The notes under the pieces: generated by a model
Database searches by the model: none
Told to the model about the DNA's origin: nothing
Seen by the model: the letters and a program-made list of their open reading frames with translations, nothing else
Part shown: in pieces, positions 1 to 6,419 of the stretch
How positions within the stretch are numbered: position 1 is the stretch's first letter
Layout of the letters: every line of letters starts with the position of its first letter
Position numbers and translations under genes: made by a program
IMG/VR virus record: IMGVR_UViG_2648501498_000009
Direction: 5' to 3' (one strand)
Length of the DNA stretch: 8,831 nucleotides
Source of the DNA: a virus
Taxonomy: Duplodnaviria; Heunggongvirae; Uroviricota; Caudoviricetes

Positions 1-67
1 CGGAAACGATGATCTGGCAGCCTGAGTTCACAGATAAAACACTCTCCAGGAAACCCGGGGCGGTTCA
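1..67 (+). mobile_element. Right terminus of an IS3-family insertion sequence (IS629/IS3411-like), partial; the body lies left of the window
   Basis: Bases 2-25 read GGA AAC GAT GAT CTG GCA GCC TGA (…GNDDLAA-stop), which I recall as the end of an IS3-family orfB. The element ends …CCCGGGGCGGTTCA at 53-67, the complement of the TGAACCGCCCCGGG inverted-repeat start typical of this family. Lambda int homology begins abruptly at 68. Confidence 0.6.
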
Positions 68-176
68 ATCCGAACTCTTTACCCGTCCTTGGGTCCCTGT
101 AGCAGTAATATCCATTGTTTCTTATATAAAGGTTAGGGGGTAAATCCCGGCGCTCATGACTTCGCCTTCTTCCCAT
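68..176 (-). pseudogene. int: Integrase N-terminal fragment (lambda Int-like, about 36 codons) truncated by the IS insertion
   Basis: Minus-strand translation from the ATG at 176 gives MGRRRSHERRDLPPNLYIRNNGYYCYRDPRTGKEFGL, matching the lambda Int N-terminus as I recall it. It then runs into the IS terminus. The start overlaps the xis 3' end as in lambda. Confidence 0.75.
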
Positions 177-372
177 TTTTGATCCTCTTCAAAAGGCTAC
201 CTGTTACTGGTCGATTTAAGTCAATTTTTACCGCTGATTCGTGGAACAAATACTCTCTTCCATCCTTAACAGGAGGAGGGAATATCCTGCACTCGCGTAC
301 CCATCGACGAACTGTTTCAAGGCTTCTTGGGCGCCGCTGGCGTGCGTTCCACTCCTGAAGTGTCAAGTACAT
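154..372 (-). CDS. xis: Excisionase Xis (72 aa), lambda-type
   Basis: The 72-aa ORF MYLTLQEWNARQRRPRSLETVRRWVRECRIFPPPVKDGREYLFHESAVK… is near-identical to lambda Xis as I recall it. Position and overlap with the int start fit lambda. Confidence 0.9.
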   Translation of the reverse strand: MYLTLQEWNARQRRPRSLETVRRWVRECRIFPPPVKDGREYLFHESAVKIDLNRPVTGSLLKRIKNGKKAKS

Positions 373-384
373 CGCAAAGTCTCC

Positions 385-398
385 GCAATTACACGCAA
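385..398 (-). promoter_or_regulatory. TTGC-N6-TTGC motif (cII-type activator site), candidate pI-like promoter -35 region
   Basis: Plus strand reads GCAATTACACGCAA, i.e. TTGCGTGTAATTGC on the minus strand, 13-26 bp upstream of the xis ATG. This is the same architecture as lambda pI, where the cII-dependent transcript starts inside xis. Confidence 0.4.
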
Positions 399-422
399 GA
401 AAAAGCCGCCATCAGGCGGCTT
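396..422 (-). terminator. Intrinsic terminator on the minus strand, upstream of xis
   Basis: Hairpin GCCGCC-ATCA-GGCGGC (405-420) flanked by A/T pairs, followed on the minus strand by TTTTTCTTG. Confidence 0.5.
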
Positions 423-590
423 GGTGTTCTTTCAGTTCTTCAATTCGAATATTGGTTATGTCTGCATGTGCTATCTGCGCCCATATCATCCAGTGGTCAT
501 AGCAGTCATTGATGTTCTCTGCTTCGATAACTCTGTTGAATGGTTCTCCATTCCATTCACCTGTGACTCGGAAGTGCATTTATCATCTCC

Positions 591-617
591 ATAAAACAAA
601 ACTCGCCGTAGCGAGTT
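591..617 (-). terminator. Intrinsic terminator-like hairpin, minus strand
   Basis: Stem AACTCGC/GCGAGTT with loop CGTA (600-617), followed on the minus strand by TTTGTTTTAT. Confidence 0.4.
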
Positions 618-620
618 CAG

Positions 621-649
621 ATAAAAGAAATCCTCGTCAGTGCGAGGAT
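621..649 (-). terminator. Second tandem terminator-like hairpin, minus strand
   Basis: Stem ATCCTCG/CGAGGAT with loop TCAGTG (630-649), followed on the minus strand by TTCTTTTAT. Confidence 0.4.
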
Positions 650-821
650 GCTGTTCATTGCTGCTATACACTTTTTTGCTCTCAACGTAAGCGGTAGCTC
701 ATTCTGTTGGGTTGGTGCAGTTGCTTTTAGGAAATGCTATTTACCCCTTAAACGTCGGCTGAAAGAGCTAAAATCCATGCAAAAAATTTACGCAATTTTG
801 TGTATTATTGTGCAGTAAGTA

Positions 822-1424
822 ATGAGCTATTTTCTGCGCAAAAAATGGATGGTAAATTTGTCCGGGGCAGGAAAAATTTTATGGGCGCTAAACATGAAAA
901 AAGATTCGTATCCTTATTTGATTTGCATGACAGTTTCAGGCCTGATCTTTATTTTCCTTTTCTTCTGGTGGCGGGCAGATATTTACAGGGTCACGTTTCT
1001 TAATCAGAGTATATCCCACTATTACATTCTGTTTAGCATGGGAATAGCTTTTCTGTTATCTCTGTTTTGGGTTAAGAAGGGGATAGTAAAACAAAGCGGC
1101 TGGAAGAGTCTGTCAGCATACCTTAAGGTTTATGCAGGGATGTGCATATTTGCTGGATTTTTTCTGATTATACCCCTTACAACACTAACTTATTTTTTGC
1201 CTGGAGAGACATCGTCTTATGTTGCACCGTATCGGTATACTTCCGGTAGTTCAAAAAGTTGTTCTGGAGCTGAGGTGGATGACCCCGATCTACATGAGAA
1301 TATTCGCATTTGCTATCCGTATGGCAATTATGAGTACGATAATATTATCTATGTTGAAAAGAAAATTAATACATTAGGTGCGGTAGTAACATATGCACAG
1401 ACCGCGCGTGATGATACTGAATGA
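822..1424 (+). CDS. Hypothetical membrane protein (200 aa from first ATG; alternative starts at 849 or 894), 3 predicted TM helices plus a roughly 75-aa C-terminal soluble domain; cargo gene of unknown function
   Basis: Long ORF in a visibly AT-rich block, on the strand opposite the pL operon. Three hydrophobic segments (YLICMTVSGLIFIFLFFWW, YYILFSMGIAFLLSLFWV, VYAGMCIFAGFFLIIPLTTLTYFL). A hairpin lies downstream. I recognise no homolog. Confidence 0.6.
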   Translation: MSYFLRKKWMVNLSGAGKILWALNMKKDSYPYLICMTVSGLIFIFLFFWWRADIYRVTFLNQSISHYYILFSMGIAFLLSLFWVKKGIVKQSGWKSLSAYLKVYAGMCIFAGFFLIIPLTTLTYFLPGETSSYVAPYRYTSGSSKSCSGAEVDDPDLHENIRICYPYGNYEYDNIIYVEKKINTLGAVVTYAQTARDDTE

Positions 1425-1458
1425 GATAGTATATAGCGGGCAAGTTTTAGTTAATTTA

Positions 1459-1496
1459 TCGAGGTAATATAATTTACCTCGACTCGTTTATTCTGG
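1459..1496 (+). terminator. Candidate intrinsic terminator for the plus-strand membrane-protein gene
   Basis: Perfect 9-bp stem TCGAGGTAA/TTACCTCGA with loop TATAAT (1459-1482), followed by T-rich CTCGTTTATTCTGG. It sits in a convergent intergenic region. Confidence 0.45.
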
Positions 1497-1634
1497 TATT
1501 AATATTTCGCTTTACGATCGATTTTTATCTGATGATATCATGCGGTTTTCATATACTGACTTACTGTCTTTTCTCCGTTAGCGATTTTCTCCTGCTCAGC
1601 GATGATTTTATCTTTGGCTTCTAGTTAATTTCGC

Positions 1635-1856
1635 TCACTTCGAACCTCTCTGTTTACTGATAAGTTCCAGATCCTCCTGGCAACTTGCACAAGTCCGACA
1701 ACCCTGAACGGCCAAGCGTCTTCGTTCATCTATCGGATCGCCACACTCACAACAATGAGTGGCAGATATAGCCTGGTGGTTCAGGCGGCGCATTTTTATT
1801 GCTGTGTTGCGCTGTAATTCTTCAATTTCTGATGCTGAATCAATGATGTCTGCCAT
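1635..1856 (-). CDS. TraR/DksA-family C4 zinc-finger protein (73 aa), phage Orf73-like
   Basis: Same length as TraR (73 aa), with CxxC-x17-CxxC (CCECGDPIDERRRLAVQGCRTCASC) and the conserved N-terminal acidic region. I recall a lambda pL-operon TraR homolog called Orf73. Confidence 0.75.
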   Translation of the reverse strand: MADIIDSASEIEELQRNTAIKMRRLNHQAISATHCCECGDPIDERRRLAVQGCRTCASCQEDLELISKQRGSK

Positions 1857-1908
1857 CTTTCATTAATCCCTGAATTGTTGGTTAATACGCTTGAGGGTGA
1901 ATGCGAAT

Positions 1909-1932
1909 AATAAAAAAGGAGCCTGTAGCTCC
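1909..1932 (-). terminator. Weak terminator-like hairpin between the 93-aa ORF and the TraR-like gene
   Basis: 5-bp stem GGAGC/GCTCC with loop CTGTA (1918-1932), followed on the minus strand by TTTTTTATT. Confidence 0.3.
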
Positions 1933-1954
1933 ATGATGATTTTGTTTTTCATGC

Positions 1955-2236
1955 TCACCGTTCCTTAAAGACGCCGTTTAACATGCCGATCGCCAGGCTT
2001 AAATGAGTCGGTGTGAATCCCATCAGCGTTACCGTTTCGCGGTGCTTCTTCAGTACGCTACGGCAAATGTCATCGACGTTTTTATCCGGAAACTGCTGTC
2101 TGGCTTTTTTGATTTCAGAATTAGCCTGACGGGCAATACTGCGAAGGGCGTTTTCTTGCTGAGGTGTCATTGAACAAGTCCCATGTCGGCAAGCATAAGC
2201 ACACAGAATATGAAGCCCGCTGCCAGAAAAATGCAT
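1955..2236 (-). CDS. Hypothetical early-left protein (93 aa from the ATG at 2236; possible 71-aa form from the ATG at 2170)
   Basis: ORF in operon orientation between orf63 and the TraR-like gene. Neither candidate start has a convincing Shine-Dalgarno. It occupies the lambda orf61/ea slot but I cannot confirm identity. Confidence 0.45.
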   Translation of the reverse strand: MHFSGSGLHILCAYACRHGTCSMTPQQENALRSIARQANSEIKKARQQFPDKNVDDICRSVLKKHRETVTLMGFTPTHLSLAIGMLNGVFKER

Positions 2237-2246
2237 TCAGTGGTTG

Positions 2247-2438
2247 TCATACCTGGTCTCTCTCATCTGCTTCTGCTTTCGCCACCATCATTTCCAGCTT
2301 TTGTGAAAGGGATGCGGCTAACGTATGAAATTCTTCGTCTGTTTCTACTGGTATTGGCACAAACCTGACTCCAATTTGAGCGAGGCTATGTGCCATCTCG
2401 ATACTCGTTCTTAACTCAACGGGAGATGCTTTGTGCAT
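2247..2438 (-). CDS. orf63: Lambda Orf63-like protein (63 aa)
   Basis: [23 protein letters not shown]…AEADERDQV matches my recollection of lambda orf63 in length, sequence and position. Confidence 0.7.
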   Translation of the reverse strand: MHKASPVELRTSIEMAHSLAQIGVRFVPIPVETDEEFHTLAASLSQKLEMMVAKAEADERDQV

Positions 2439-2599
2439 ACAGCTCCCCGTTTATTATTTATCTCCTCAGCCAGCCGCTGTGCTTTCAGTGGATTTCGGAT
2501 AACAGAAAGGCCGGGAAATACCCAGCCTCGCTTCGTAACGGAGTAGACGAAAGTGATCGTGCCTACGCGGATATTATCGTGAGGATGTTTCATCGCCAT
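2411..2599 (-). CDS. orf60a: Lambda Orf60a-like protein (62 aa as called; 60 aa if started at 2593)
   Basis: …[56 protein letters not shown]… matches lambda orf60a as I recall it. It lies immediately downstream of exo. Confidence 0.7.
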
Positions 2600-3270
2600 T
2601 GCTCCCCAAATACAAAACCAATTTCAGCCAGTGCCTCGTCCATTTTTTCGATGAACTCCGGCACCATCTCGTCAAAACTCGCTATATACTTTTCATTCCG
2701 CTCAATCACGACATAATGCAGGCCTTCACGCTTCATACGCGGGTCATAGTTGGCAAAGTACCAGGCATCTTTTCGCGTCACCCACATGCTGTACTGCACC
2801 TGGGCCATGTAAGCCGACTTTATGGCCTCGAAACCACCGAGCCGGAATTTCATGAAATCCCGGGAGGTAAACGGGCATTTCAGCTCAAGGCCATTGCCGT
2901 CACTGCATAAACCATCGGGAGAGCAGGCGGTGCGCATACTTTCGTCGCGATAGATGATCGGGGATTCAATAACATTTACGCCGGAAGTGAACTCAAACAG
3001 GGTTCTGGCGTCGTTCTCGTACTGTTTTCCCCAGGCCAGCGCTTTAGCGTTAACTTCCGGAGCCACACCGGTGCAAACCTCAGCTAGCAGGGTGTGGAAG
3101 TAGGACATTTTCATGTCAGGCCACTTCTTTCCTGATCGGGGCTTTGCTATCACGTTGTGAACTTCTGAAGCGGTGATGACGCCGAGCCGTAATTTGTGCC
3201 ATGCATCATCCCCCTGTTCGACAGCTCTCACGTCGATCCCGGTACGCTGCAGGATAATGTCCGGTGTCAT
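2590..3270 (-). CDS. exo: Lambda exonuclease (Red-alpha), 226 aa
   Basis: Full-length match to lambda Exo ([65 protein letters not shown]…GFVFGEQWR). Its ATG overlaps the bet stop (ATGA). Confidence 0.95.
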
Positions 3271-4052
3271 GCTGCCACCTTCTGCTCAGTGGCTTTCTGT
3301 TTCAGGAATCCAAGAGCTTTCACTGCTTCGGCCTGTGTCAGTTCTGACGATGCGCGAATGTCGCGGCGAAATATCAGGGAACAGAGCGGCAATAAGTCGT
3401 CATCCCATGTTTTATCCAGGGCGATCAGCAGAGTGTTAATCTCCTGCATGGTTTCATCGTTAACCGGAGTGATGTCGCGTTCCGGCTGACGTTCTGCAGT
3501 GTATGCAGTATTTTCGACAATGCGCTCGGCTTCATCCTTGTCATAGATACCAGCAAATCCGAAGGCCAGACGGGCACACTGAATCATGGCTTTATGCCGT
3601 AACATCCGTTTGGGATGCGACTGCCACGGTCCGGTGATTTCTCTGCCTTCGCGGGTTTTGAATGGTTCGCGGCGGCATTCATCCATCCACTCGGTAACGC
3701 AGATCGGATGATTGCGGTCTTTGCGGTAAATCCGGCATGTGCAGGATTCGTTGTCCTGTTCAAAGTCCATGCCGTCAAACTGCTGGTTTTCGTTGATGAT
3801 GCGGGACCAGCCATCAACGCCCACCACCGGAACGATGCCGTTCTGCTTATCAGGGAAGGCGTAAATTTCTTTCGTCCACGGATTAAGACCGTACTGGTTG
3901 GCGACGATCAGCAATGCGATGAACTGCGCATCGCTGGCATCACCTTTAAATGCCGTCTGGCGAAGAGTGGTGATCAGTTCCTGTGGGTCGACAGAATCCA
4001 TGCCGACTCGTTCAGCCAGCTTCCCAGCCAGCGTTGCGAGTGCTGTACTCAT
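3267..4052 (-). CDS. bet: Beta single-strand annealing protein (Red-beta), 261 aa
   Basis: Full-length match to lambda Bet ([66 protein letters not shown]…). Confidence 0.95.
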
Positions 4053-4057
4053 CCGTT

Positions 4058-4474
4058 TTATACCTCTGAATCAATATCAACCTGGTGGTGAGCAATGGTT
4101 TCAACCATGTACCGGATGTGTTCTGCCATGCGCTCCTGAAACTCAACATCGTCATCAAACGCACGGGTAATGGCTTTTTTGCTGGCCCCGTGGCGTTGCA
4201 AATGATCGATGCATAGCGATTCAAACAGGTGCTGGGGCAGGCCTTTTTCCATGTCGTCTGCCAGTTCTGCCTCTTTCTCTTCACGGGCGATCTGCTGGTA
4301 GTGACGCGCCCAGCTCTGAGCCTCAAGACGATCCTGAATGTAATAAGCGTTCATGGCTGAACTCCTGAAATAGCTGTGAAAATATCGCCCGCGAAATGCC
4401 AGGCTGATTAGGAAAACAGGAAAGGGGGTTAGTGAATGCTTTTGCTTGATCTCAGTTTCAGCATTAATATCCAT
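4058..4474 (-). CDS. gam: Gam RecBCD inhibitor (138-aa long form)
   Basis: Match to lambda Gam (…[59 protein letters not shown]…VDIDSEV). It overlaps kil by 46 nt as in lambda. Confidence 0.95.
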
Positions 4475-4572
4475 TTTTTATAAGCGTCGACGGCTTCACG
4501 AAACATCTTTTCATCGCCAATAAAAGTGGCGATAGTGAATTTAGTCTGGATAGCCATAAGTGTTTGATCCAT
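4429..4572 (-). CDS. kil: Kil host-killing protein (FtsZ inhibitor), 47 aa
   Basis: Internal ATG at 4572 of the 89-aa ORF gives [47 protein letters not shown], matching lambda Kil. The 5' extension in the ORF track is rejected. Confidence 0.85.
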
Positions 4573-4705
4573 TCTTTGGGACTCCTGGCTGATTAAGTAT
4601 GTCGATAAGGCGTTTCCATCCGTCACGTAATTTACGGGTGATTCGTTCAAGTAAAGATTCGGAAGGGCAGCCAGCAACAGGCCACCCTGCAATGGCATAT
4701 TGCAT
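4541..4705 (-). CDS. cIII: cIII (FtsH protease inhibitor), 54 aa
   Basis: Internal ATG at 4705 gives [54 protein letters not shown], matching lambda cIII. It overlaps kil by 32 nt as in lambda. Confidence 0.9.
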   Translation of the reverse strand: MQYAIAGWPVAGCPSESLLERITRKLRDGWKRLIDILNQPGVPKNGSNTYGYPD

Positions 4706-4777
4706 GGTGTGCTCCTTATTTATACATAACGAAAAACGCCTCGAGTGAAGCGTTATTGGTATGCGGTAAAACCGCAC

Positions 4778-5146
4778 TCAGGCGGCCTTGATAGTCATAT
4801 CATCTGAATCAAATATTCCTGATGTATCGATATCGGTAATTCTTATTCCTTCGCTACCATCCATTGGAGGCCATCCTTCCTGACCATTTCCATCATTCCA
4901 GTCGAACTCACACACAACACCATATGCATTTAAGTCGCTTGAAATTGCTATAAGCAGAGCATGTTGCGCCAGCATGATTAATACAGCATTTAATACAGAG
5001 CCGTGTTTATTGAGTCGGTATTCAGAGTCTGACCAGAAATTATTAATCTGGTGAAGTTTTTCCTCTGTCATTACGTCATGGTCGATTTCAATTTCTATTG
5101 ATGCTTTCCAGTCGTAATCAATGATGTATTTTTTGATGTTTGACAT
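4778..5146 (-). CDS. ea10: Ea10-like early protein (122 aa)
   Basis: 122-aa ORF 72 nt downstream of cIII in operon orientation. Length and position match lambda ea10; the sequence is consistent with my recollection but I am less sure than for the Red genes. Confidence 0.7.
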   Translation of the reverse strand: MSNIKKYIIDYDWKASIEIEIDHDVMTEEKLHQINNFWSDSEYRLNKHGSVLNAVLIMLAQHALLIAISSDLNAYGVVCEFDWNDGNGQEGWPPMDGSEGIRITDIDTSGIFDSDDMTIKAA

Positions 5147-5162
5147 CTATTCATATCCTCAT

Positions 5163-5192
5163 AGATAAAAAATCGCCCTCACACTGGAGGGC
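5163..5192 (-). terminator. Intrinsic terminator upstream of ea10 (minus strand)
   Basis: Stem GCCCTC/GAGGGC with loop ACACTG (5175-5192), followed on the minus strand by ATTTTTTATCT. Confidence 0.45.
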
Positions 5193-5254
5193 AAAGAAGA
5201 TTTCCAATAATCAGAACAAGTCGGCTCCTGTTTAGTTACGAGCGACATTGCTCC

Positions 5255-5282
5255 GTGTATTCACTCGTTGGAATGAATACAC
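5255..5282. repeat. 9-bp perfect inverted repeat GTGTATTCA…TGAATACAC with 10-bp spacer
   Basis: Seen directly in an intergenic region between two terminators. It could be an operator-like protein site or an RNA hairpin. Confidence 0.4.
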
Positions 5283-5310
5283 AGTGCAGTGTTTATTCTG
5301 TTGTTAGTGC

Positions 5311-5337
5311 CAAAAATAAAGGCCGACTATGCGGCCT
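5311..5337 (-). terminator. Intrinsic terminator immediately downstream of the 149-aa membrane-protein gene
   Basis: Stem AGGCCG/CGGCCT with loop ACTATG (5320-5337), followed on the minus strand by TTATTTTTG. It starts 5 nt after the stop codon. Confidence 0.55.
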
Positions 5338-5341
5338 GAAA

Positions 5342-5791
5342 TTACTTAACCAATGATGCTGCATATTCGATAAGGTAAAGCTTTGGAGCCAGCAAAATTT
5401 CTAACCATGTCATATTGGTTACTACAGCAATAATAAAACTTACCCACAGAACAAAAACTGCAGCTAATGGTAAGATTAGAAAACTAATCTCACCGTTACT
5501 TTCCCAAATCATAGTCGGTTTGTATTTAGTCTTCCCCTTATCCCATGACCATCCTTCATCATCGAACTTACCAATTTCAACTTTTTGGTACTGTTTCTTC
5601 ATAAACCAGAAAACCAGCGGGATTGTTAAAATGGCTATTAATGTTTTAATCAGGCTATCAACCATATTCCATAGCAGCAACTGATGAACAACATCAGGAA
5701 TCTGTGCCTGGCTAAATGAGACAGCCGCGTCTATTCCATTACTGGCTTTTTGCAATAGTTCTATGAGAATCTTATTTGCCTGTTCTTCCAT
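5342..5791 (-). CDS. Hypothetical 2-TM membrane protein (149 aa) in the N-proximal sieB/ral accessory slot; possible superinfection-exclusion-type function
   Basis: AT-rich ORF with a good RBS (GGTGA, 5 nt before the ATG) placed right after the N stop. Two hydrophobic helices (LIKTLIAILTIPLVFWFM; ISFLILPLAAVFVLWVSFIIAVV). It has its own terminator. The function is inferred from position only. Confidence 0.6.
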   Translation of the reverse strand: MEEQANKILIELLQKASNGIDAAVSFSQAQIPDVVHQLLLWNMVDSLIKTLIAILTIPLVFWFMKKQYQKVEIGKFDDEGWSWDKGKTKYKPTMIWESNGEISFLILPLAAVFVLWVSFIIAVVTNMTWLEILLAPKLYLIEYAASLVK

Positions 5792-5799
5792 ATATCACC

Positions 5800-6099
5800 T
5801 CAAATAAGTGGTTTGCTGCCTAATTTCATTTTCTGGCGACCAACACAAGTCACACCCATTTCACTGCGTGGCTTGCTGTAGTAAATACGGTTCTGTTTAC
5901 GCTCGACTTCTTCTGCCTTCTGGCAGCGAAGGCTTCCGAGTGATGCTGCTTTATCTGCTCTGACGCAACCAGAGAGCTTTAGCGCAATCTTTCGCGCCAG
6001 TCGCTGCTCTTGCATTGCCTGTTCACGTTGAGCCTGTCTGCGTGCTCTGCGGCGATTTCTGGCGTTATCGTCAGCCAGATATGTAATGACTACTGTCAT
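5800..6099 (-). CDS. N-family transcription antitermination protein (99 aa)
   Basis: Strong GGAGG RBS. N-terminal arginine-rich motif (NARNRRRARRQAQREQ). The C-terminus KQNRIYYSKPRSEMGVTCVGRQKMKLGSKPLI resembles lambda N (…KNQRTWYSKPGERGITCSGRQKIKGKSIPLI). It is the first gene downstream of pL/nutL. Confidence 0.85.
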   Translation of the reverse strand: MTVVITYLADDNARNRRRARRQAQREQAMQEQRLARKIALKLSGCVRADKAASLGSLRCQKAEEVERKQNRIYYSKPRSEMGVTCVGRQKMKLGSKPLI

Positions 6100-6212
6100 G
6101 TTGACCTCCGATGATTGACTTTAGCGGTGACGTGACGGGGGGTGGGAGGTTAATTCCCTGATGCTGTCGCGCGGCTGCACTTCACATCACCCCAAAGCCA
6201 ACTACTCTTTGG

Positions 6213-6255
6213 TTCCCGCATTTCGGCGGGACAATCCCATCAATGTTAAAGAGCC
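6213..6255 (-). promoter_or_regulatory. nutL (boxA plus boxB)
   Basis: Minus strand reads GGCTCTTTAACA (boxA) then the hairpin TCCCGC-CGAAAT-GCGGGA (boxB). The boxB core is identical to the one in nutR at 7367-7384. Confidence 0.65.
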
Positions 6256-6289
6256 TGCCAATCTGTTCCGTTTGGCTACCAGCGTCCTG

Positions 6290-6335
6290 CTGATGACTTA
6301 AATTTAAGATTTCTTTAATTTGTGGTCAAGAGTGT
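6290..6335 (-). promoter_or_regulatory. pL promoter with oL operators (P22-type ATTTAAG…CTTAAAT sites)
   Basis: Minus-strand -35 TTGACC (6324-6329) and -10 TAAATT (6301-6306) at 17-bp spacing. An 18-bp operator ATTTAAGATTTCTTTAAT (6302-6319) overlaps it, with further TTAAG/CTTAA sites nearby. Confidence 0.5.
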
Positions 6336-6393
6336 TTTTGAAGAAAACTTAAATTTTATTGCAGGGCTTAAGTTTTGCTTTGATTTTTAAAGG

Positions 6394-6419
6394 AAAGAAA
6401 AAAGGGGCGAATGCCCCTT
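6394..6419 (-). terminator. Intrinsic terminator for the repressor gene
   Basis: Stem AAGGGGC/GCCCCTT with loop GAAT (6402-6419) followed on the minus strand by TTTTTTCTTT. The repressor stop codon lies inside the hairpin. Confidence 0.7.

What the first reader, a model, noticed from the sequence alone, without database searches (positions are those of the whole stretch)
1..176. int disrupted at about codon 36 by an IS3-family element, so the prophage is bracketed by two different IS elements
Lambda Int homology (MGRRRSHERR…TGKEFGL) stops at 68 and abuts the IS terminus …CCCGGGGCGGTTCA. Together with the IS50-like insertion in O, the segment int'–xis–Red–immunity–O' is flanked by two unrelated IS elements. 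It can neither excise (no Int) nor replicate, yet it retains intact Xis, Red, Kil, Gam, cIII, N, repressor, Cro and cII genes. This looks like a grounded prophage remnant whose recombination, immunity and cargo genes are kept.
Basis: partly seen in the sequence, partly recalled or inferred. Interest (0 to 1): 0.5.

Follow-up and report, generated by a model that had tools for sequence, protein, structure and literature searches.

The report
IS1203-interrupted lambda int at a contig end
The integrase gene of a lambda-like E. coli prophage is cut at codon 37 by a common insertion sequence (IS1203/IS629); this is an ordinary kind of prophage damage, and the "bracketing" by two insertion sequences is largely a result of where a draft assembly broke.

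Summary
Window 176..68 (minus strand) encodes 36 residues identical to phage lambda Int, plus a 37th (Leu) formed by chance across the junction. Bases 1-67 are 100% identical to the right end of the IS3-family element IS1203/IS629. The right side is also as described: the replication gene O is cut after codon 121, inside the first ori iteron, by the IS50-like IS4-family element ISEc13 (8119-8831).

The window is an entire 8,831-bp draft contig (JHSF01000110.1). Both ends are assembly breaks inside multicopy IS elements, so nothing shows that the prophage ends there. In two of three related complete genomes, the same IS sits in the same int as a simple insertion, with the rest of int and ybhC beyond it.

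The genes in between (xis, exo, bet, gam, kil, cIII, N21, cI21, cro, cII) have the same lengths as in intact relatives. The allele occurs only in a few near-identical short contigs and in none of 5,426 complete E. coli genomes. This points to recent damage rather than selected retention.

IS-disrupted lambdoid prophages are well documented. Interest is low and the kind is already known.

The parts
1..67 (+). Right end (IRR side) of an IS1203/IS629-type IS3-family element. The transposase reads left to right and its stop codon is the tga at 23-25. The terminus ...CCCGGGGCGGTTCA ends at 67. The rest of the IS lies beyond the contig end.
   Evidence: 67/67 identity to annotated IS1203 copies. Position relative to the transposase CDS was read from reference copies.
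68..176 (-). int' fragment: start codon plus 36 codons of a lambda-type integrase, which is about half of the arm-binding domain. No core-binding or catalytic domain is present. The ORF reads on into the IS, and the predicted fusion product is 89 aa.
   Evidence: The fusion ORF was reconstructed.
154..372 (-). xis (72 aa), intact. It overlaps the int start by 23 nt, as in lambda.
   Evidence: PF07825 and phrog_629 excisionase, E=1.4e-22. Same length as in H10407 and lambda imm21.
2590..3270 (-). exo (226 aa), intact.
   Evidence: PF09588. Same length as in H10407 and lambda imm21.
3267..4052 (-). bet (261 aa), intact.
   Evidence: PF03837 RecT. Lengths compared.
4058..4354 (-). gam (98 aa), intact.
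   Evidence: PF06064. Lengths compared.
4429..4705 (-). kil (4429-4572, 47 aa) and cIII (4541-4705, 54 aa), both intact.
   Evidence: PF06301 and PF02061. Lengths compared.
5800..6099 (-). N antiterminator of the phage-21 type (99 aa).
   Evidence: phrog_271, E=1.6e-36. Same 300-nt length as N in lambda imm21.
6418..7068 (-). imm21-type CI repressor (216 aa, HTH plus S24 peptidase).
   Evidence: Same length as WP_001095981.1 in H10407. The best phage matches are lambda imm21 and DE3.
7149..7721 (+). cro (7149-7334, 61 aa) and cII (7443-7721, 92 aa).
   Evidence: PF14549 and PF05269. Lengths compared.
7756..8118 (+). O' fragment: the first 121 codons of replication initiator O. The ORF continues for 7 IS-encoded codons to a stop ending at 8142. 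The last 16 nt (8103-8118, atccctcaaaacgag) are the left part of ori iteron 1.
   Evidence: PF04492 and phrog_2365/277, profile positions 1-122 of 232/318. Comparison with the lambda imm21 ori sequence.
8119..8831 (-). Part of ISEc13 (IS4 family, IS50-like). It comprises the inside-end-like terminus CTGTCTCTTGATCAGATCT and the 3' 233 codons of the transposase. It runs off the contig end.
   Evidence: 98.8% identity to annotated ISEc13. Weak DDE_Tnp_1 and Tn5-dimerisation matches.

Best explanation
A copy of IS1203/IS629 (IS3 family; by established knowledge it moves by copy-out/paste-in and makes a 3-bp target duplication) has transposed into codon 37 of the lambda-type int gene. The host element is a lambdoid prophage with phage-21 immunity, in an E. 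coli draft genome. The right end of the IS faces the 5' stump of int, and its transposase converges on int.

The stump encodes only about half of the arm-binding domain and none of the catalytic domain, so this gene copy cannot make Int. A second, unrelated IS (ISEc13, IS50-like) has inserted into O at codon 121, inside ori iteron 1. This removes both the initiator and an intact origin.

The window is the complete contig. It ends in both IS elements because short-read assemblers cannot traverse multicopy repeats. The most likely situation (inferred, about 65-70%) is two simple, recent insertions inside a larger prophage. Its int 3' part and attL would lie beyond the left IS, and its O 3' part, P and late genes beyond the right IS.

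Functionally (inferred), the prophage is locked and cannot replicate in cis. It still expresses imm21 immunity and, on derepression, the pL operon (N, cIII, Kil, Gam, Red, Xis).
For: - **Int identity:** the int fragment is identical to lambda Int over 37 residues and matches PF09003.
- **IS1203 end:** 67/67 identity to the IS1203 right end.
- **Source:** the window equals the whole of contig JHSF01000110.1.
- **ISEc13 junction:** it lies inside iteron 1.
- **Precedents:** simple IS1203 insertions occur in the same int, in the same orientation and flanked by ybhC, in N32 (3-bp duplication 'cag') and NZRM4165, and at another position in UTME-9.
- **Gene integrity:** all genes in between have the same lengths as in H10407 and lambda imm21.
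- **Distribution:** the exact O' protein is found on 10-19 contigs only, all of 8.8 kb or less, with 0-3 mismatches to the window. Neither junction occurs in 5,426 complete E. coli genomes.
Against: - The far side of either IS is not in the window and could not be recovered.
- The predicted reciprocal junction GCCTAATC|TGAACCGCCCCGGG was absent from GTDB representative genomes and JGI metagenomes. The observed junction was absent from those collections too, so this null result is uninformative.
- No target-site duplication could be checked.
- No expression or excision data exist.
Confidence: 0.85

Rival explanations
1. True remnant. The IS copies mark the real ends of what is left of the prophage. 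IS-mediated adjacent deletion, or recombination between IS copies, has removed the 3' part of int with attL on one side and the O 3' part, P and late genes on the other.
For: Both ends of the phage DNA coincide with IS termini. IS629 is associated with genomic deletions in EHEC (abstract of PMC9943667, seen). Nothing beyond either IS could be retrieved.
Against: The contig must end at multicopy IS elements whatever lies beyond them. In the complete genomes where the same IS sits in the same int next to ybhC (N32, NZRM4165), the 3' part of int and ybhC lie directly beyond it. All 8 kb between the IS elements is undecayed, which is unlike old remnants.
Confidence: 0.28
2. Selected or reversible 'lock'. 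Under this reading, inactivation of int by IS1203 is favoured or targeted so as to domesticate the prophage while keeping immunity and Red. It could be reversed by IS-excision-enhancer (IEE)-promoted excision of IS629-type elements.
For: There are four independent IS1203 insertion sites in lambda-type int, all in the same orientation. IEE promotes IS629 excision, and IEE-mediated IS excision restores lacZ in STEC O121 (PMC9943667 and PMC9397093, abstracts seen).
Against: IS1203 has up to 50 copies per genome and inserts into very many genes; more than 1,000 different chimeric ORFs read into this IS end. No rate or enrichment test was done. It is unknown whether the source genome carries IEE. 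An intact kil in a locked prophage is a liability on induction (general lambda knowledge).
Confidence: 0.05
3. Assembly artefact: the int'/IS join is a chimeric join made by the assembler.
For: The join lies 67 nt from a contig end.
Against: The sequence shared between int and the IS terminus at the join is a single base, too short to cause a false join. The same contig is recorded in 2 samples, with 8 further similar places. The structure is exactly what a real IS insertion looks like at a repeat-induced contig break.
Confidence: 0.02

Closest known systems
IS-disrupted defective lambdoid prophages of E. coli O157:H7 Sakai (Sp3, Sp11 and Sp12 with disrupted int; Sp4 with an IS in nu1), Asadulghani et al. 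2009, PMC2669165
   Same: These are lambdoid prophages in E. coli whose integrase or other key genes are inactivated, by IS insertion among other lesions, while many other genes remain intact.
   Different: The present case is a different prophage (lambda int/xis/red with imm21 immunity) and a different insertion allele, at int codon 37. This allele was not found in any of 5,426 complete genomes. It also carries a second hit, by ISEc13, in the ori iterons.
IS1203-interrupted lambda-type int next to ybhC in E. coli N32 and NZRM4165 (complete genomes)
   Same: The int family, the IS and the orientation are the same, and the insertion is in or near the arm-binding domain. NZRM4165 also has the same gene order (xis, 55-aa ORF, 200-aa ORF, traR...).
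   Different: The insertion sites differ: nt 139 and about nt 189, against nt 109 here. These are therefore independent events. In those genomes the far side (int 3' part, ybhC) is visible; here it is not.
Phage lambda imm21 / DE3
   Same: The window is 96% identical to it over about 75% of 68-8118. Gene order is the same from int to O, and N (99 aa) and cro (61 aa) have the same lengths.
   Different: Lambda imm21 has an intact int (356 aa) and O (299 aa). Its ea8.5/ea22 and ral regions are replaced here by other accessory ORFs (822-1424 on the + strand, and 5342-5791).
Engineered defective lambda prophage of recombineering strains such as DY380 (from my own knowledge, not checked here)
   Same: That construct is a non-excising, non-replicating lambda segment that keeps the repressor, N, kil, gam, bet and exo under pL control.
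   Different: It is man-made, by deletion of cro-bioA, and keeps an intact int and xis. The present case arose naturally, by two IS insertions.

Membership tests
IS3 family, IS1203/IS629 element | Terminal inverted repeat of the TG...CA type with the element-specific sequence TGAACCGCCCCGGG | tested here: met
   Window 67..1 (minus strand) reads TGAACCGCCCCGGGTTTCC... and is 67/67 identical to annotated IS1203 copies.
IS3 family, IS1203/IS629 element | orfA/orfB transposase made by a programmed -1 frameshift (DDE) | not testable with these tools
   Only the last 25 nt of the transposase ORF lie in the window. Reference copies carrying the identical end are annotated with a programmed frameshift.
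IS3 family, IS1203/IS629 element | 3-bp target-site duplication flanking a 1,310-bp element | not testable with these tools
   The other junction lies outside the contig. Its expected form...GCCTAATC|TGAACC, was not found in the searchable collections. Reference copies are 1,310 bp long, with duplications 'cag' and 'gca'.
Lambda-type tyrosine integrase | N-terminal arm-type DNA-binding domain (PF09003) | tested here: met
   Residues 1-38 match profile positions 1-43 of 74 at 60 bits and are identical to 1KJK. Only about half of the domain is present.
Lambda-type tyrosine integrase | Core-binding and catalytic domains (PF00589, with the catalytic tyrosine) | tested here: not met
   These domains are absent from the window. 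The intact homologue in H10407 has PF00589 at residues 179-345. The feature here is a gene fragment, not an integrase.
IS4 family, ISEc13 (IS50-like) | 19-bp IS50-type end and a Tn5-like DDE transposase | tested here: met
   The end CTGTCTCTTGATCAGATCT starts at 8119. The stretch is 98.8% identical in nucleotides to annotated ISEc13. Because the ORF is truncated, the DDE_Tnp_1 and Dimer_Tnp_Tn5 matches fall just below their cutoffs.
IS4 family, ISEc13 (IS50-like) | 9-bp target-site duplication | not testable with these tools
   The other end lies outside the contig. Reference copy A25 shows the 9-bp duplication cgaagagag. The duplication expected here is caaaacgag (8110-8118).
Composite transposon | Two copies of the same IS (or compatible ends) flanking the cargo | tested here: not met
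   The left element is IS3-family IS1203 and the right is IS4-family ISEc13, with unrelated ends and transposases.
Lambdoid prophage early region with imm21 immunity | Gene order int-xis-(ea)-exo-bet-gam-kil-cIII-N-cI-cro-cII-O, with high identity to lambda/21 | tested here: met
   The window is 97% identical to the H10407 prophage over 67-5800 and 5908-8115, and 96% identical to lambda imm21/DE3.

The most novel reading that the evidence does not exclude
IS1203/IS629 insertion into the 5' third of lambda-type int genes is not random damage. On this reading it is a recurrent, orientation-biased and possibly IEE-reversible switch that grounds prophages while leaving immunity and Red functions available. 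The basis is four independent alleles seen here, all in the same orientation.
Probability: 0.04. Interest if true: 0.45.

Novelty: already known. Interest (0 to 1): 0.1.

Why it matters
It matters little beyond annotation. The feature documents one more way in which a lambdoid prophage in a pathogenic-type E. coli lineage becomes locked and unable to replicate. It also illustrates a general trap: in short-read draft genomes a contig 'bracketed by IS elements' reflects the behaviour of the assembler. The IS ends say where the contig stops, not where the mobile element stops. If the recurrent, same-orientation hits of IS1203 in int proved to be non-random, that would be of modest interest for prophage domestication.

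Tried and rejected
**Searches for the source junctions**
1. I looked for the same junctions in 5,426 complete E. coli genomes. No contiguous match was found. The six '80% or more' hits for the int junction were two-piece matches to different insertion sites.
2. Exact-pattern scans for the observed junction in GTDB representative genomes and JGI metagenomes returned 0 hits each.
3. The same scans for the predicted reciprocal junction GCCTAATC|TGAACCGCCCCGGG also returned 0 hits each. This is uninformative, because the lineage itself is absent from those collections.
4. I reconstructed the predicted 89-aa int'-IS fusion ORF and looked it up by exact sequence. It is not in the collection.
5. A homology search with that fusion returned only other genes fused to the same IS tail and no int fusion. 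No assembly that crosses the IS at this site was therefore available.
6. A literature search for the accession (JHSF..., GCA_001265845) returned 0 papers, so the strain and pathotype were not identified.

**Readings and side checks set aside**
7. I first wondered whether ISEc13 starts at 8106, because some BLAST hits extend that far. I rejected this. The flank in strain A25 only resembles the window by chance, and A25's 9-bp duplication places the IS end at the base equivalent to 8119.
8. PADLOC and Pfam searches of the accessory ORFs (200 aa and 149 aa) gave no hits.
9. The composite-transposon reading was rejected because the two IS elements belong to different families.

Full report
**What is at 1-176**

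The minus strand of 176..1 translates to MGRRRSHERRDLPPNLYIRNNGYYCYRDPRTGKEFGL, followed by NRPGFPGECFICELRLPDHRF.
- The first 37 residues are identical to the arm-binding domain of phage lambda integrase (PDB 1KJK/1Z1B, E=3.6e-23).
- They match Pfam PF09003 at 60 bits, covering profile positions 1-43 of 74.
- xis (154-372, minus strand) overlaps the int start by 23 nt, as in lambda, and is full length.

Bases 1-67 are 67/67 identical (E=3e-26) to the end of elements annotated 'IS3-like element IS1203 family transposase'. Such elements occur in 4,068 of 5,426 complete E. coli genomes, with up to 50 copies per genome. By my own knowledge, IS1203 is an iso-form of IS629.
- Reference copies show that this is the right end, immediately 3' of the transposase.
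- In window coordinates the transposase runs on the + strand and stops at the tga at 23-25.
- The terminus ...CCCGGGGCGGTTCA ends at 67.

Comparison with the intact int of ETEC H10407 places the break after int nt 109, the first base of codon 37. Leu37 is recreated by chance from the IS terminus.

**The right side**

O (7756-) is homologous to lambda-type O through codon 121 (phrog_2365/277 positions 1-122). At 8119 the sequence becomes CTGTCTCTTGATCAGATCT..., which is 98.8% identical to ISEc13, an IS4-family element. By my own knowledge this matches the inside end of IS50.
- A reference copy in strain A25, with its 9-bp duplication, fixes the IS boundary.
- Alignment with lambda imm21 shows that the insertion lies inside ori iteron 1: atccctcaaaacgag|gga.
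- 'IS50-like insertion in O' is therefore right. The insertion destroys both the initiator and the origin.

**What the segment is**

The best intact relative is a prophage in ETEC H10407 whose int lies next to ybhC (by my own knowledge, the lambda attB region). It is 97% identical over 67-5800 and 5908-8115. The best phage matches are lambda imm21 and DE3, at 96% identity.
- N (99 aa), the repressor (216 aa) and Cro (61 aa) are of the phage-21 immunity type.
- xis, exo, bet, gam, kil, cIII, ea10 (DUF2528) and cII have exactly the lengths seen in H10407 and lambda imm21.

**The caveat that changes the interpretation**

The window is identical to the whole of contig JHSF01000110.1 of assembly GCA_001265845.1.
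- Both ends of the contig lie inside multicopy IS elements, which is where short-read assemblers stop. 'Bracketed by two IS elements' therefore describes the contig and not necessarily the prophage.
- Three complete genomes carry IS1203 in this same int family in the same orientation. In N32 and NZRM4165, where int lies next to ybhC, the 3' part of int and ybhC follow directly beyond the IS.
  - N32: insertion after nt 139, with the 3-bp duplication 'cag', which confirms a simple insertion.
  - NZRM4165: insertion at about nt 189 (the left IS end was not located, so no duplication was checked).
  - UTME-9: insertion at about nt 540-600, with the duplication 'gca' and a 3' int fragment beyond the IS, next to mdtA.
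- I therefore rate a simple insertion inside a larger prophage as more likely (about 0.65-0.7) than a true two-sided remnant (about 0.28). It cannot be decided from available data.

**Attempts to see beyond the IS**
- Neither junction occurs contiguously in the 5,426 complete genomes.
- Exact scans for the observed junction and the predicted reciprocal junction found nothing in GTDB representatives or JGI metagenomes.
- The reconstructed 89-aa int'-IS fusion ORF is not in the 15-billion-protein collection.
- A homology search with it returned only other genes fused to the same IS tail.

**Age and distribution**

The exact O'-IS fusion protein is recorded on 10 contigs (19 contigs read), all of 8.8 kb or less. 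They come from NCBI, Logan and ENA gut-type assemblies. Those I could compare differ from the window by 0-3 bases.

Taken with the absence from complete genomes, this points to recent events in a narrow clone. Intact ORFs are then expected without invoking selection. An intact kil in a prophage that cannot excise or lyse is, from general lambda biology, a cost on induction rather than a benefit. The statement that the genes 'are kept' is therefore unproven.

**Mechanism**

*Shown:*
- An IS1203 right end is joined to int codon 37.
- An ISEc13 end is joined to O codon 121, inside iteron 1.
- The early, recombination and immunity genes in between are uninterrupted.

*Inferred:*
- IS1203 arrived by copy-out/paste-in transposition and made a 3-bp duplication, expected to be ATC.
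- No Int can be made from this copy, because the stump lacks half of the arm-binding domain and all of the core-binding and catalytic domains. PF00589 lies at residues 179-345 of the intact homologue.
- O and ori are non-functional.
- The repressor still confers imm21 immunity and holds pL silent.
- SOS induction would express N, cIII, Kil, Gam, Red and Xis without excision or replication in cis.
- Excision in trans by a co-resident lambda-type Int remains possible if attL and attR survive. Defective O157 prophages are excised, replicated and transferred through inter-prophage interactions (PMC2669165).
- IEE-promoted IS629 excision could in principle reverse the lesion (PMC9943667, PMC9397093), but whether the strain carries iee is unknown.

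**Comparison with known systems, and novelty**

IS insertions and disrupted int genes in lambdoid prophages of E. coli are textbook observations. In O157 Sakai, Int is disrupted in Sp3, Sp11 and Sp12, and nu1 of Sp4 is disrupted by an IS (PMC2669165). Both IS elements and the phage backbone are known at 96-100% identity. It is not a composite transposon, because the two IS elements belong to unrelated families.

The particular allele (nt 109) is not present in complete genomes, but it is only one more instance of a known phenomenon. My verdict is: a real feature, ordinary, already known, interest about 0.1.

The only mildly unusual point is that all four independent IS1203 hits in this int family have the same orientation, and three of them fall in the first 190 nt. 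This is a small sample without any normalisation. I give a 'targeted or selected, possibly reversible lock' reading about a 4% chance.

Noticed in passing
window 1-176; L012 2241-3550; L014 about 1740-3050; L013 2241-3550: There are four independent IS1203 insertions in lambda-type int genes, at nt 109, 139, about 189 and about 540-600. All have the IS right end next to the 5' part of int, so the transposase converges on int. The sample is small and there is no normalisation.
   Followed up: partly
window 8103-8119: ISEc13 is inserted exactly inside ori-lambda iteron 1 (atccctcaaaacgag|ctgtctc...). It therefore splits the origin as well as the O reading frame. The expected 9-bp duplication is caaaacgag.
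   Followed up: yes
L001 13060-13090 (ETEC H10407 prophage): The closest 'intact' relative has its four ori iterons collapsed to a single one (atccctcaaaacaggggga), and its O gene is annotated as frameshifted. That prophage is probably replication-defective too, through a different lesion.
   Followed up: partly
window 822-1424 (+), with a hairpin at 1459-1482: A 200-aa ORF lies on the strand opposite to the pL operon and replaces lambda ea8.5/ea22. Its sequence looks hydrophobic in the N-terminal half, suggesting a membrane protein (by eye; not tested). Its C-terminal 88 aa match phrog_1416 (function unknown). It has no Pfam or PADLOC match and is followed by a terminator-like hairpin. Annotated 603-nt (200-aa) hypothetical ORFs occupy the same position and strand in the H10407 and NZRM4165 prophages. 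It is a moron-like accessory gene of unknown function.
   Followed up: partly
window 5342-5791 (-): A 149-aa ORF (phrog_3054, function unknown, no Pfam or PADLOC match) lies between ea10 and N, where lambda carries ral. Its sequence looks hydrophobic, suggesting a membrane protein (by eye; not tested). The ral and sieB genes of H10407 are absent here.
   Followed up: partly
window 396-422: A GC-rich hairpin that resembles a terminator on both strands (403-422) lies downstream of xis. It coincides with a mosaic boundary between related prophages and with the point where a Logan contig from another sample (L004) begins.
   Followed up: no
window 1-67 (minus-strand reading frame); proteins P0016-P0135: More than 1,000 protein clusters in public data share the same 52-aa tail (NRPGFPGECFICELRLPDHRFRWKHNKLF...). 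The tail is produced by reading from an interrupted gene into the right end of IS1203. Some carry names inherited from the disrupted gene, such as 'FimD' or 'BfpM-like protein'. Others are stumps of a P4-type integrase and of an O-like replication protein.
   Followed up: partly
window 8119-8140; L011 3040-3065: The two ends of ISEc13 resemble the Tn5/IS50 inside end (CTGTCTCTTGATCAGATCT) and the outside or mosaic end (CTGTCTCTTATACACAAAT) respectively.
   Followed up: no
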